Under the pieces are notes generated by a model that was given only the letters and a program-made list of their open reading frames with translations, did not search any database and was not told the DNA's origin. DNA of 64,000 bases from Lophium mytilinum (Eukaryota). The DNA is taken from positions 310,001-374,000 of the forward strand of contig MU004195.1 of assembly GCA_010093605.1 (NCBI GenBank), read 5' to 3'. Positions 54,961-61,063 of the stretch are shown here, piece by piece; positions within the stretch are counted from its first letter, which is position 1, and each line of letters starts with the position of its first letter. The translations under genes and the position numbers were made by a program.

Positions 54961-56336
54961 CTATGGGCAGACCTTTTTGGCTGCCCCCCAAACCATTCTC
55001 CGGATCTCTCCCTCCTTGAAGGAATTCTTAGCACCCCAGTTGATAAGCTGTGTAATCAAAGAATGATCAGAATTCTGGGCAACACCATCGATTGGTCGCC
55101 CCGTAGGCCACATTGCAGCAAAAGTGATGCGACGGACGGCCGTCTCAAGGCTTGCCCCCTCCTTGATGATCTTCTGGATGTGCGCCTCAACCATTCGAAC
55201 GACGAACCTCCGGTCCTCTTCAGCCTTCGCAGCCGCTCGGAAATCATTCTCCATATGCTTGTTATTCATCGCAGAGACGCGGGGGTTGCCAGGAGCGGGA
55301 TGGCCCAACTCCTGACGCAGAACTTGCTTAGATGTACCGTTGGCACGGAGCGGAGATTTCGAAACCTGGTCGTGGGCCTTTTGCGACGGGTCCTGCGAGT
55401 TTTCCCCCTTCTTAGATTGGAATGGAAGATATCTGGCCGGCGCATTCGCGATCAGAGTCCGGACCTCGTTCAGGTCTATACAGCCCTCTTTGCACCACTT
55501 CAGGATGTCCACGATGACTGGATTACGATGAGAATCATTATTCGGATTCATCCAGGCCGTGTCCCAGCGAGTAGCAGTCTCCTGGATTGCGTGCGTGATT
55601 TCGTCATGCGTGAAGCCCCTCTCGATGCATATCGTGATGTAGATACGGATTGCCTGTTCGATGAGTTTGATCTCAGGTTCAGTCAAGTTATGAAGGGCTG
55701 CCTTCCCCCGATCCTGCATAATCTTCTCGGTGTCCTCTTCTGATAGAGAACGCCAAGCCATTCTCACAACGTGAGCGATGACAGTTTCCGTGTGCGATTC
55801 TGGACGGGGTTCAAGCTTCGGAGCAACGACGAGAGGTTGGCCTACAGATGGAGCCCCACCGCGCTGCTGCTGATTGGGAGCATTCATGGCACGGATGATG
55901 CTCTGCGCTTGCTGCTGCTGAAGCTCTTCGACATCTTTGGGGCCAGGAAAGGTGCCTGTACGGTCTCCCATGTAGTAGATGTTCTGAGTGCCAATACTGA
56001 GTGCACCTGAAGTAGAAGTGTTGTGGGAATGACTGTCTTGGTTGCCATGTCCTGCGTGAAGGTGGCCTGGACCGGACAGCAAATTCTCTGGTGATCCAAA
56101 GGCTGGGTTTTGCTGCGTACCATGGCCTGATTGAATGATAGAAGGGCGTGCGTCGTAGTTCGGGCTCTGCCAATGATTGCGGTGATCGGGTATAGTGCCA
56201 TCACCATTGTAGGCTGAGCCGGTGACAGGCACTCGACGAGCAGACATGCCTGTGGGAAGCTGGTTTGTAGACTAGGAGTGCTTTGTTAGTTCCAGAAGAA
56301 TCAGCGTCAAAGATGAAAAGGGCGAGGTCTTACCAT
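54961..56336 (-). CDS. Array member 4 (~437 aa): amyloid-like N-terminus + 2x module B; ATG-only exon 1, intron 56272-56333
   Basis: ATG|GTAAGA...CTAAC...CTAG|TCTACAAAC in frame. B copies contain ILKWCK and LINWGA. Confidence 0.8.
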
Positions 56337-56543
56337 TACGGCTCTCCTTAGTTGCGTGGATACTATGATGGTGTTTGTCGGAGAAAACAAGCTGATAGGG
56401 GCTTTGTGGTTGCTTTGCTGACTAGTGGTGTGGTAACAAGGAATGGTGTGGTGATATTATGAGTAGAGGTGGTGGAGAGGGTGCTTTATATGATGAAGAA
56501 GAGATTTCATCTTGCTGGGGAGGGAGTTTCGAGCCCTGCTGAA

Positions 56544-56566
56544 ACATTCACAGGAACTCGCCGCCT
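56544..56566 (-). promoter_or_regulatory. Conserved upstream motif (+ strand ACATTCAC-N5-6-(C/T)TCGC.GCCT) of array member 4; copies at 59027, 61188, 63685
   Basis: Found 125-210 bp upstream of the ATG of each of the four large paralogues. Function is inferred only. Confidence 0.5.
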
Positions 56567-58886: not shown

Positions 58887-59512
58887 GGTATGACTTCTGG
58901 AGATGTTGGGTTAGTGGTGTGGGGAAGAAGATAATGTATGGTGTGGTATGGTGTGTTGTTGAGGTGAAGCAGTGTGTTAATTCAACTAAACTGTTTGTTC
59001 AAATAGTGCAACTTTAAGTTTGGCTAACATTCACAAGGATTCGCTGCCTCATGTCCGGCGCCAGTGGTCGTGGTGCCTGGAAGCAACCACTGTGAAACTA
59101 GACCATTCTGATACAAACTAACCAATAAAATTGCACACTTGAGACACCCTGCGAAAGTTCAGGATCAATTCAATGATATCTACTTAGCGTGCCCTGACAA
59201 GCTTCTAGAACACTGGATTACATCGTAAAGTTGGATACGGTCTGAATCAATCTACCCTTTGGTTCACCGACAATCCCCTATGCAGGGTTCCTCTCACAGT
59301 GGTATCAAGCGAGCAAAAAGAAAGACCAACTAAGTCTATACCTGCGTGCTTTGGGTTAGTGATGCAATCCTTTATCCTCAGCTATTGAATTTAGTATTTC
59401 AAGCACAAACACACCCAGGTCTATCGAGTTATTTCTCGAAAATACTCCCCAACGCTCTTTTCAGGAAATACCGCAACGTACAGGTAGGAAGCCTCCATGT
59501 CTCGAGTAACTT

Positions 59513-61063
59513 CTACTGGATCTTGGCCGTCTCCTGCCTGATCATCGCCCGAATTATGTCGCCTCGTACACCATTCCCCTGCCCCCACTTTAGCAGCTCA
59601 CACACAACACGTCGCGGTGGATGTCGTTCGCTTAGTGGTGCACTTCCAGGTTGGTACCATGAAGCTCTCGTGAGGTCACGAGTAACTAGTCTCATATCTC
59701 CGCCTGATTTAACGCTTCCCTGAACGTACGTCTCGATTGTTTGGCGGATATACTTCTGAGTCTGCTCGTCCTTTTCCTCGCGCTGGGTGGCCTTCGTAGG
59801 TTCGAGCTCCTTCTGAGACGTCTCCGCTGCTAACGGGAGGAGCGTACTGACACGACGAGGATTGCCAGGACGCATGGGGATCTGTACAGCCTGAGGAGCA
59901 ACACCGGTCTGAGCGTTCTTAGTGAGAACGAGTTTCTCAGTCTTCTTGCTCTCTTTAAGGGCTTCTTCGATGAGCGAAAGGTGACCAGTGGCACCAACCC
60001 GTTTCTTCTGGCGATTCAAGATTGCCGTAGCGCTTTTACGGATCGCTGTAGCTCGGCTCTGAATTAAAATCTGGGCCTCGTCTCTTCCGATTTCATGCTC
60101 AAGGCACCATTTAATCAGTCCCTCAACCATAGGATTGGAGTGTTCAGGGTTCTCCTCGCGGAACTTCGTCTTGTAGTAGGTAGCAGTCAGAGCGATACCT
60201 CGAATGACATCGGCGAAGTGGCCGCCATCTTCAACACCGTTTCTAATAGCCATGTCGACCATGTCATTGATAAACTTCTTATCGGAGGCTGTGGCCCTGA
60301 GGACTGGTCTCTGGACCCATTCATTTCCCTGGTGTAGGTTTGTGGGTGACGGAACCTGAAGAGCTTCATGGTTGGATAGAATCTGAGTATTCGCAGCTTT
60401 TCCAATCGGGTCAGCCTGCATTGCCATACGCTCTTGCGCTCGCAAACGTTCCGCATTGCATTGCTCGATTAGTTGCTGGTTGATCTTATTGTAAAGGGCG
60501 TAGTCGTCCGGAGTTGCAACTCGGTGATCTACATGCTCCTTGATTCCGGCTATCGCTGGATCGTAAGCTTCGAGGTGTTGCCAGCACTTCGAAACGGCGT
60601 CGGCAGCTATTTGATCTATAGGCCCAATATCGCTAAGGCGATTAGGTCTTCCTAAGGAAGCCCCGTGCTGCTGCTGTTGGGGAGCGAAGGGAGCGAAAGG
60701 ATGTCCTCCCGGCTGCTGTCGCAGGTGTTCTGCCGGCATCAGGCCTGAGGGAGGTACAACTGCAGTCTCCATGGGATGGTCATGGTGGGCGCCATCTGTA
60801 CCACTTGGATCATAGGCAGTATTACTCAGGGGCAATGGGTAGTACGTGTTGTGCTGGACTCCTATATGAACCTGGCTGGGGCCATTGTAGTGGGCAACTT
60901 GGCCTGTATGAACGCGACTATGTTCATTATACTGGTACCCTTTGCCATTCCGGGCTGAGCCAGGTACGACTGCGCCATGAAAGGGGTTTCCCTGGGTACC
61001 TTGTCCTGTGTTTGTTGCAGCAGGATGGAATCCGGGCGGCAAGGTATGGCGGGCGGACATCAT
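59513..61063 (-). CDS. Array member 6 (~516 aa): amyloid-like N-terminus + module A + 2x module B, apparently intronless
   Basis: Start MMSARH matches MSARR of member 4. NTGQGTQ, NGKGYQYN, VHIGVQHNTYY. B copies contain LIKWC and LLKWG. Confidence 0.8.
   Translation of the reverse strand: MMSARHTLPPGFHPAATNTGQGTQGNPFHGAVVPGSARNGKGYQYNEHSRVHTGQVAHYNGPSQVHIGVQHNTYYPLPLSNTAYDPSGTDGAHHDHPMETAVVPPSGLMPAEHLRQQPGGHPFAPFAPQQQQHGASLGRPNRLSDIGPIDQIAADAVSKCWQHLEAYDPAIAGIKEHVDHRVATPDDYALYNKINQQLIEQCNAERLRAQERMAMQADPIGKAANTQILSNHEALQVPSPTNLHQGNEWVQRPVLRATASDKKFINDMVDMAIRNGVEDGGHFADVIRGIALTATYYKTKFREENPEHSNPMVEGLIKWCLEHEIGRDEAQILIQSRATAIRKSATAILNRQKKRVGATGHLSLIEEALKESKKTEKLVLTKNAQTGVAPQAVQIPMRPGNPRRVSTLLPLAAETSQKELEPTKATQREEKDEQTQKYIRQTIETYVQGSVKSGGDMRLVTRDLTRASWYQPGSAPLSERHPPRRVVCELLKWGQGNGVRGDIIRAMIRQETAKIQ

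What the first reader, a model, noticed from the sequence alone, without database searches (positions are those of the whole stretch)
55970..61063. Sigma/RHIM-like amyloid-signalling motifs at the N-termini of three non-NLR proteins
Seen: member 5 has NNGPGALNNTGSGALNNSGSGPANAGQGTQYNGSVGHVVNFY. Member 6 has NTGQGTQGN..NGKGYQYN..YNGPSQVHIGVQHNTYY. Member 4 has QSGHGTQQN..HAGHGNQD..GALSIGTQNIYY. All show G-x-G-x-Q repeats ending in a hydrophobic-x-I/V-G..N-x-aromatic strand. Established: fungal amyloid signalling motifs (HRAM, sigma of SesA/SesB, RHIM-like PP) are N/G/Q-rich pseudo-repeats at NLR N-termini and effector C-termini. Here they are N-terminal, but the proteins have no NACHT/NB-ARC Walker A and no repeat sensor. 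Inference: a possible NLR-independent amyloid or prion scaffold that oligomerises modules A/B.
Basis: partly seen in the sequence, partly recalled or inferred. Interest (0 to 1): 0.82.

Follow-up and report, generated by a model that had tools for sequence, protein, structure and literature searches.

The report
Sigma-like N-terminal repeats on orphan fungal paralogues
Three neighbouring genes of a very narrowly distributed fungal family begin with a conserved glycine/asparagine/glutamine-rich repeat that resembles known fungal amyloid-signalling motifs, but it fits none of the known motif families and no receptor partner was found, so an amyloid role is plausible and unproven.

Summary
G-x-G-x-Q-x-N occurs four times in the window's six-frame translation (segments of 25 aa or more). 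All four copies lie in the N-termini of three adjacent minus-strand paralogues, m4, m5 and m6. None of 20,000 composition-preserving shuffles reached this count. Each N-terminus closes with h-G-x-x(x)-N-x-Y.

The nearest published pattern is sigma-motif submotif A, GxGxQFNxx. m5 has GQGTQYN and m6 has GKGYQYN. The defining features are not met:
- there are no three contiguous repeats;
- no ASM Pfam profile is hit, and the best match is PF17108 at E=3.9;
- the PP core and the PUASM pattern are absent;
- no NLR or motif-bearing partner lies in the 64 kb.

The proteins are orphans. HMMER against 1.84 billion representatives found one relative outside the window, from Mytilinidion resinicola. In that orthologue pair the motif region is 74% identical over ungapped columns, against 46-48% for the two four-helix modules. 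AF2 models the N-terminus as disordered.

Best reading (0.4): a constrained, sigma-like, prion-like self-association segment. An ordinary disordered region is nearly as likely. The genome was not available, so the search for a partner is incomplete.

The parts
54961..56247 (-). m4, 428-aa single-ORF paralogue
   Evidence: ORF. Homologous to m5, m6 and m7. No Pfam or NCBIfam family.
55972..56157 (-). m4 N-terminal motif region (about residues 31-92): NYDARP, GHGTQQN, GHGNQDS, IGTQNIYY
   Evidence: The closing GTQNI matches 5 of 8 positions of sigma submotif B, GGTQNINT (pattern).
57335..58801 (-). m5, 488-aa paralogue. Identical to database protein P0001.
   Evidence: Orthologue P0002 is 52% identical over the full length.
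58613..58753 (-). m5 N-terminal motif region (residues 17-63). Five units of 7-8 residues, G-x-G-x-x-N-N type, including GQGTQYN. Closes with VGHVVNFY.
   Evidence: 74% identical to P0002 over ungapped columns. AF2 pLDDT about 30.
58679..58731 (-). In-frame 24-bp tandem duplication that creates the extra GSGALNN unit of m5
   Evidence: TRF: period 24, 2.2 copies, 89% match. The unit is absent from P0002.
59513..61063 (-). m6, 516-aa paralogue. Database model P0003 starts at the second Met.
60839..61012 (-). m6 N-terminal motif region (residues 18-75): GQGTQGN, GKGYQYN, IGVQHNTYY
   Evidence: Faint PF17108 (singular HET-S motif) match at residues 61-75: E=3.9, 8 bits against a cut-off of 24.3.
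61976..63160 (-). m7, 394-aa paralogue without the motif
63161..63421 (-). m7 remnant of the N-terminal region. 87 in-frame codons are open upstream of its Met and contain no ATG. The motif has decayed to ASGSQNTQAQHRGSGS. ATC at 63398-63400 aligns with the m4 start codon.
52553..53518 (-). m3, a distant 321-aa paralogue with modules A and B only and no motif
   Evidence: (m3 against m6, E 0.003).
58172..58348 (-). m5 module A (residues 152-210), helical
   Evidence: AF2 helices 153-209. 71% identical to P0002.
57791..58054 (-). m5 module B1 (residues 250-337), four helices
57338..57583 (-). m5 module B2 (residues 407-488), an internal repeat of B1 and a confident four-helix bundle
   Evidence: AF2 pLDDT 91, pTM 0.80. 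Best structural Z is 7.8, which is not informative for a helical bundle.

Best explanation
m4, m5 and m6 are adjacent single-ORF paralogues of a lineage-restricted orphan family. Each starts with a 60-90-residue G/N/Q/H/Y-rich segment that AF2 models as disordered in m5, the one paralogue folded. The segment holds one or two sigma-submotif-A-like heptads (G-x-G-x-Q-x-N). m5 also has Q-less G-x-G-x-x-N-N units. The segment closes with a beta-prone hydrophobic-G-x-x(x)-N-x-Y(Y) stretch.

I read this segment as a homotypic association element. It would also allow association between the paralogues. It would be prion-like, disordered in the monomer, and probably stack as beta-arches once concentrated. 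That would bring together the C-terminal helical modules (A, B1, B2).

Shown here:
- the motif exists and is not a chance product of composition;
- it is conserved in the only orthologue;
- the monomer is modelled as disordered;
- there are no NLR domains.

Inferred, not shown: self-association, the cross-beta form, and any downstream function. It works like a sigma-type motif, but it is not a member of any described ASM family.
For: 1. The pattern is non-random and confined to these N-termini. G-x-G-x-Q-x-N occurs 4 of 4 times there in the six-frame window, and 0 of 20,000 shuffles reached this count.
2. GQGTQYN (m5), GKGYQYN (m6) and GHGTQYN (P0002) fit sigma submotif A, GxGxQFNxx, with Y in place of F. 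IGTQNIYY in m4 resembles submotif B, GGTQNINT.
3. The composition matches the published description of PFD-like motifs: G, N/Q and aromatics, and repeats reminiscent of the Sup35 oligopeptide repeats. G is 12.5-16% in the first 80 residues against 6-7% in the rest.
4. There is constraint. Between m5 and P0002 the motif region is 74% identical over ungapped columns and the following linker 69%. Modules B1 and B2 are 48% and 46%. The cores GSGPANAG[QH]GTQYN and VGH[VI]VNFY are kept.
5. The m4 and m5 N-termini are still alignable (E 0.006).
6. AF2 gives pLDDT about 30 for residues 1-151, as expected for a segment that orders only on assembly.
7. Weak lead only: the ESM Atlas model of residues 12-66 has beta-roll and beta-helix neighbours at TM 0.41-0.58, from a low-confidence model.
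Against: - No ASM profile is hit at E<=10 (PF11558, PF17046, PF17106) or for RHIM. The only match is PF17108 at E=3.9. HMMER's filters may hide weak matches.
- Strict G.G.QFN and GGTQN are absent.
- The heptads in m4 and m6 are 20-25 residues apart. A sigma motif packs its repeats contiguously into 25-27 aa.
- The segment contains several prolines, and m4 and m6 are 10% histidine there.
- One m5 unit is a recent slippage duplication.
- m7 and m3 lack the segment, so the family can do without it.
- Phmmer of the three N-termini against PDB sequences found no HET-s, HELLF or RHIM chain.
- Constraint rests on a single orthologue pair.
- Disorder and conservation fit a non-amyloid interaction region equally well.
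Confidence: 0.4

Rival explanations
1. It is an ordinary conserved disordered region. The N-terminal 150 residues would carry short linear motifs or act as a low-complexity interaction or condensate region with no cross-beta assembly. The G-x-G-x-Q-x-N heptads would be a family-specific linear motif inherited by the paralogues.
For: - The whole of residues 1-151 is modelled as disordered.
- The P/Q-rich linker 64-151, which is not ASM-like, is conserved about as well (69%) as the motif (74%).
- A further conserved element, Y-[SD]-[AE]-R-P, precedes the heptads in m4, m5, m7 and P0002.
- No ASM profile is hit.
- Prolines and histidines are frequent.
Against: The heptads and the closing V/I-G-x-x-N-x-Y-Y stretch match the published ASM grammar closely. 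The closing stretch is rich in beta-branched and aromatic residues.
Confidence: 0.35
2. It is canonical amyloid signalling with a partner outside the window. An NLR elsewhere in the genome would carry the same motif and template these proteins. They would then be effectors with the motif at the unusual N-terminal end.
For: - The motif is closest to sigma submotif A.
- Wojciechowski 2022 infers NLR-effector pairs encoded by non-adjacent genes (section 24 read).
- A HET-domain gene lies 10 kb away, so the region has a non-self-recognition flavour.
- The window ends 840 bp past m7.
Against: - No other ORF in the 64 kb carries the pattern, and no NACHT or NB-ARC domain was seen among the 10 ORFs scanned.
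- A search with residues 1-70 against proteins of 855-2440 aa gave 0 hits at E<=10 among 87 candidates. This tool also missed the known orthologue in the 'near' search, so it is insensitive here.
- In the papers read, ASMs sit at effector C-termini.
Confidence: 0.12
3. It is a neutral low-complexity tail made by replication slippage, with no function of its own.
For: - There is a 24-bp tandem duplication in m5.
- m5 and P0002 differ by indels of 9 and 5 residues.
- The segment is decayed or lost in m7 and absent in m3.
Against: - The segment is more conserved than the folded modules in the orthologue pair.
- The same ordered elements are kept in paralogues that are only 20-30% identical overall.
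- 0 of 20,000 shuffles reproduce the pattern.
Confidence: 0.08
4. It is an annotation artefact. The true start codons would lie downstream and the segment would be 5' UTR.
For: No RNA data could be obtained. m7 does appear to start downstream of the homologous region.
Against: - The frames are open from ATG.
- The independent database models P0001 and P0003 include the segment.
- The orthologue keeps the frame across two indels that are multiples of three.
Confidence: 0.03

Closest known systems
Sigma motif of Nectria haematococca SesA/SesB/HET-eN (Pfam NACHT_sigma PF17106; Daskalov 2012, sections 9 and 16 read)
   Same: - G-x-G-x-Q-aromatic-N heptads: GQGTQYN and GKGYQYN against submotif A, GxGxQFNxx.
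- A GTQNI stretch in m4 against submotif B, GGTQNINT.
- G, N/Q and aromatic-rich with few charges.
- Found in several adjacent genes.
   Different: - There are not three contiguous A/B repeats in 25-27 aa.
- No PF17106 hit.
- The motif is N-terminal on non-NLR proteins, whereas sigma sits at an NLR N-terminus and an effector C-terminus.
- The adjacent carriers are whole-length paralogues, not unrelated proteins that share only the motif.
PUASM (FxGxGxQxxGxGxF; Wojciechowski 2022, sections 19, 24 and 33 read)
   Same: GQGTQYNG in m5 fits the inner GxGxQxxG.
   Different: The flanking F residues and the second GxG are missing, so the pattern is absent. No PNP_UDP domain or NACHT partner is present.
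PP motif / mammalian RHIM
   Same: N/G/Q-rich, with a hydrophobic-G-x-Q stretch near the end (IGVQ in m6, IGTQ in m4).
   Different: The core NxGxQxGxN is absent, and GxQxG is absent from the N-terminal motif regions. No PF17046 hit at E<=10.
Yeast prion-forming domains with oligopeptide repeats (Sup35 type). The comparison is the one made in Daskalov 2012, section 16.
   Same: An N-terminal, disordered, G/N/Q/Y-rich segment with short imperfect repeats whose number varies by in-frame slippage.
   Different: The segment is much shorter and has a lower Q/N fraction (N plus Q is 15% in the first 80 residues). It is rich in His and Pro. PLAAC was not available to score it.

Membership tests
Sigma amyloid signalling motif | Submotifs A (GxGxQFNxx) and/or B (GGTQNINT) | tested here: inconclusive
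   Strict G.G.QFN gives 0 hits and GGTQN gives 0 hits. With any aromatic residue, G.G.Q[FYW]N gives 2 hits (m5, m6), plus GHGTQYN in P0002. GTQNI occurs in m4 (patterns).
Sigma amyloid signalling motif | Three contiguous A/B repeats spanning 25-27 residues | tested here: not met
   The heptads start at residues 41 and 66 in m4 and at 20 and 40 in m6. m5 has contiguous G-x-G units, but only one carries the Q.
Sigma amyloid signalling motif | Match to Pfam NACHT_sigma (PF17106) | tested here: not met
   hmmscan of the four N-termini at E<=10 gave no PF17106 hit. HMMER's filters drop most matches above about 0.1.
Any NLR-associated ASM | The same motif on an NLR N-terminus and an effector C-terminus, usually in neighbouring genes | tested here: not met
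   This was tested within the 64 kb only. The pattern occurs solely in m4, m5 and m6, and the ORFs scanned have no NACHT or NB-ARC. The rest of the genome is not held.
Any NLR-associated ASM | Forms amyloid, or propagates as a prion | not testable with these tools
   Needs ThT/EM of peptides and GFP-fusion assays.
PP motif / RHIM | Pseudo-palindromic core NxGxQxGxN (GxQxG) | tested here: not met
   NxGxQxGxN gives 0 hits in the proteins and in the six-frame window. GxQxG is absent from the N-terminal motif regions of m4, m5 and m6. It does occur once at m5 residue 115, in the linker, and in unrelated frames of the window. No PF17046 hit.
HET-s / HRAM | Match to PF11558 or PF17108 | tested here: not met
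   Only m6 residues 61-75 match PF17108, at E=3.9 and 8 bits against a cut-off of 24.3. Phmmer against PDB sequences found no HET-s or HELLF chain.
PUASM | FxGxGxQxxGxGxF pattern and association with PNP_UDP | tested here: not met
   The pattern is absent and no PNP_UDP domain is present.
NLR (NACHT/NB-ARC STAND ATPase) | P-loop NTPase domain with Walker A | tested here: not met
   No [GA]xxxxGK[ST] in m3-m7. No Pfam family. The m5 model is disordered plus helical modules.
Prion-like domain (Sup35 type) | Q/N-rich composition scored by PLAAC, and oligopeptide repeats | tested here: inconclusive
   G, N, Y and H are enriched, and the repeats have 7-8-residue units. N plus Q is only about 15%. 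PLAAC is not available.

The most novel reading that the evidence does not exclude
The three N-termini are a new amyloid-forming motif related to sigma. It would work without an NLR: the tandem paralogues would co-assemble through it into a hetero-amyloid hub, as RHIM does for RIPK1 and RIPK3. That hub would cluster their four-helix modules. This would be a receptor-independent use of fungal amyloid signalling grammar, at the N-terminal end of the effector-like proteins.
Probability: 0.18. Interest if true: 0.75.

Novelty: new variant of a known kind. Interest (0 to 1): 0.45.

Why it matters
In the papers read here, fungal amyloid signalling motifs are defined by an NLR-to-effector pairing. 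A constrained, sigma-like motif on non-NLR proteins that form a tandem paralogue array would widen the contexts in which such motifs are sought. It would also give a small, testable set of peptides for asking whether the G-x-G-x-Q-aromatic-N grammar alone predicts amyloid formation. If the peptides do not aggregate, the case is a useful negative example for ASM predictors, which have low precision at proteome scale (0.13-0.31).

Tried and rejected
- Whole genome: not held, so no genome-wide partner search was possible.
- RNA evidence: no RNA holder was listed.
- Complex prediction with 4 copies of m5 residues 14-70: no verdict, score 0.02 against a mark of 0.32, controls not run. This is not evidence either way.
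- Word-index searches with m5 residues 1-70. Against longer proteins: 0 hits at E<=10 among 87 candidates. Against near-length proteins: only the query itself among 20 candidates. The second search missed the known orthologue, so both blanks are weak.
The single protein found no relative among 117 pattern matches.
- ESM Atlas by features: no usable hit for residues 1-70 or 150-488.
- Foldseek of the full m5 model against PDB: 0 matches at E<=0.001.
- VIA-align of module B2 against 48,161 chains: best Z 7.8 (Cas11/Cmr5-like helical bundles), below the level that is meaningful for helical bundles.
- hmmsearch of the family profile against PDB sequences: best E 0.48.
- NCBIfam: 0 families.
- Pfam on the 8 module-B copies: best E 0.11.
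- Phmmer of the m6 N-terminus against PDB gave only insignificant matches to staphylococcal exfoliative toxin chains (E 0.28-4.6). I treat these as chance.
- Earlier findings of this scan: none.
- Supplements of Wojciechowski 2022: no mention of Mytilinidion in the 11 files searched. Files 9 and 10 were not searched.
- A 21-residue HET-s-like register in m6 (N18, N39, N60): considered and dropped, because the autocorrelation shows no peak at lag 21.
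Full report
**What is there.** The 3' quarter of the window holds a head-to-tail array of minus-strand ORFs without introns:
- m3: 52553-53518
- m4: 54961-56247
- m5: 57335-58801
- m6: 59513-61063
- m7: 61976-63160

All-against-all BLASTP shows that m4-m7 are homologous, for example m5 against m6 at E 5e-35 and m4 against m7 at E 1e-13. m3 is a marginal member, at E 0.003 against m6. 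None of the five has a Pfam or NCBIfam family.

The organism is a fungus. The only relative outside the window comes from Mytilinidion resinicola (P0002). It was found by the word-index search and by HMMER against 1.84 billion cluster representatives. That HMMER search returned 3 proteins at E<=0.001: P0002, plus P0003 and P0004, which are the window's own m6 and m7. The family is therefore very narrowly distributed.

**Check of the observation.** The three quoted peptides are present as written.
- G-x-G-x-Q-x-N occurs at m4 residue 41, m5 residue 46, and m6 residues 20 and 40.
- Each N-terminus ends with a hydrophobic-G-x-x(x)-N-x-Y stretch: IGTQNIYY, VGHVVNFY and IGVQHNTYY.
- In 20,000 shuffles of each N-terminus, none reached 4 heptads (mean 0.023). 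The closing stretch appeared in all three N-termini in 5e-05 of shuffles.
- In the six-frame translation of the whole window (94,489 aa in segments of 25 aa or more), the heptad occurs 4 times, all in these N-termini.

First, the proteins are paralogues, so the motif is shared by descent. Second, m5 has only one Q-bearing unit. Its other units are G-x-G-A-L-N-N or G-S-G-P-A-N, and one of them comes from a 24-bp in-frame tandem duplication (58679-58731) that the orthologue lacks.

**Are these true N-termini?** The frames open at ATG, and no in-frame start lies upstream of them. The database gene models P0001 (m5) and P0003 (m6) include the segment. The orthologue keeps the reading frame through indels of 9 and 5 residues. 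No RNA data could be obtained.

**Anatomy of the proteins.** AF2 on a 6-sequence alignment models m5 as follows:
- residues 1-151: disordered, pLDDT about 30
- residues 153-209: module A, three helices
- residues 252-346: module B1, four helices
- residues 393-485: module B2, four helices

B1 and B2 are internal repeats, and eight copies from five proteins align. B2 folded alone gives a confident four-helix bundle, with pLDDT 91 and pTM 0.80. Neither Foldseek on the full model (0 matches at E<=0.001) nor VIA-align on B2 (best Z 7.8) gives an informative structural relative.

**Comparison with described amyloid signalling motifs.**
- *Sigma.* Daskalov 2012 (sections 9 and 16 read) defines the sigma motif as three contiguous copies of submotif A (GxGxQFNxx) and/or B (GGTQNINT) within 25-27 residues. 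GQGTQYN (m5), GKGYQYN (m6) and GHGTQYN (P0002) fit submotif A with Y in place of F. IGTQNIYY in m4 shares GTQNI with submotif B. The strict patterns are absent. The heptads of m4 and m6 are 20-25 residues apart.
- *Pfam profiles.* hmmscan of the four N-termini at E<=10 hit none of the ASM profiles named (PF11558, PF17046, PF17106). The one exception is PF17108 on m6 residues 61-75, at E=3.9.
- *PP.* The core NxGxQxGxN is absent, and GxQxG does not occur in the N-terminal motif regions.
- *PUASM.* The pattern FxGxGxQxxGxGxF is absent.
- *Solved amyloid chains.* Phmmer against PDB sequences found no HET-s, HELLF or RHIM chain.

The segment follows the general grammar and is closest to sigma, but it is not a member of any described family. 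In the paper library the string 'GxGxQ' occurs in only 3 papers, of which 2 were listed, both on fungal ASMs.

**Partner search.** The defining context of an ASM is the same motif on an NLR N-terminus and an effector C-terminus, usually in neighbouring genes.
- Within the 64 kb no other ORF carries the pattern, and no NACHT or NB-ARC domain was seen among the 10 ORFs scanned.
- A HET-domain ORF lies at 42832-44436 (PF06985, E 3e-5). Its C-terminus has no such motif.
- The genome is not held.
- Database searches with residues 1-70 were blank. The second missed the known orthologue, so they carry little weight.

**Evidence of constraint.** The table gives identity between m5 and P0002 by region, over ungapped columns.

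| Region of m5 | Identity to P0002 |
|---|---|
| Motif, residues 17-63 | 74% (54% counting gap columns) |
| P/Q-rich linker, 64-151 | 69% |
| Module A | 71% |
| Module B1 | 48% |
| Module B2 | 46% |

The part modelled as disordered is thus at least as conserved as the folded modules, which argues against a neutral low-complexity tail. This rests on one orthologue pair.

Against indispensability, m3 lacks the segment. In m7 the codon aligned with the m4 ATG is ATC (63398-63400). The 87 in-frame codons upstream of the m7 Met contain no ATG, and the motif there has decayed to ASGSQNTQAQHRGSGS.

**Most likely mechanism.** I commit, at 0.4, to a self-associating, prion-like N-terminal segment. It would be disordered in the monomer and would stack as beta-arches through the G-x-G-x-Q-aromatic-N heptads and the closing V/I-G-x-x-N-x-Y-Y strand. 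It would act among copies of one protein and perhaps across the paralogues, and so cluster the helical modules. Only the sequence features, the conservation and the disorder are shown. The assembly is inferred from resemblance to sigma-type motifs and to Sup35-type repeats.

The rivals are:
- An ordinary conserved disordered or short-linear-motif region (0.35). The equally conserved non-ASM-like linker, the Y-S-[AE]-R-P element and the Pro/His content favour this.
- Canonical NLR signalling with a partner outside the window (0.12).
- A neutral slippage product (0.08).
- Mis-annotation (0.03).

**Verdict.** The feature is real and non-random, and it resembles known ASMs enough to justify bench tests. 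Membership in sigma, PP/RHIM, HRAM and PUASM was tested and not met. The amyloid claim itself could not be tested. Interest is moderate.

Noticed in passing
window 63161-63424 (-): m7 has ATC (63398-63400) where m4 has its ATG. The 87 in-frame codons between the shared upstream TAG (63422-63424) and the m7 Met contain no ATG, yet remain open. The database model P0004 instead splices in an upstream exon from what looks like promoter sequence. Either the ancestral start was lost recently or initiation is non-AUG.
   Followed up: partly
window 58679-58731 (-): A 24-bp in-frame tandem duplication (2.2 copies, 89% match) adds one GSGALNN unit to m5 relative to the M. resinicola orthologue. The repeat number therefore varies by slippage.
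   Followed up: yes
window 42832-44436 (+): This ORF holds the C-terminal part of a HET (heterokaryon incompatibility) domain: PF06985, E 3.3e-5, profile positions 72-146. It lies 10 kb from the paralogue array. The N-terminal part of the domain is presumably in an upstream exon.
   Followed up: no
window 47389-47994 (-) and 48685-49152 (-): Two small ORFs are paralogues of each other (52% identity, E 9e-17). The second contains the shared module twice. It is weakly similar to the start of m7 (E 0.004), so the array may extend further with truncated members.
   Followed up: partly
window 55972-56157 (-) and 60839-61012 (-): Histidine makes up 10% of the first 80 residues of m4 and m6, against 3-4% in the rest. 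P0002 has an extra DVHNH insert just before the closing strand. This may point to pH or metal dependence of whatever the segment does.
   Followed up: no
window 58349-58612 (-), m5 residues 64-151: The P/Q-rich linker after the motif is modelled as disordered, yet it is 69% identical to the orthologue. It includes a run of about 50 residues that is almost unchanged (PPMGAF...QAGRDTFANLGHQQG). It is conserved as well as the motif, and this is unexplained.
   Followed up: partly
window 56248-56300, 63400-63440 (-): The 5' leader just upstream of the start codons is alignable between m4 and m7 (CACTCCTAG..AC.AACCAGCT). The duplications therefore carried the promoter-proximal sequence.
   Followed up: no
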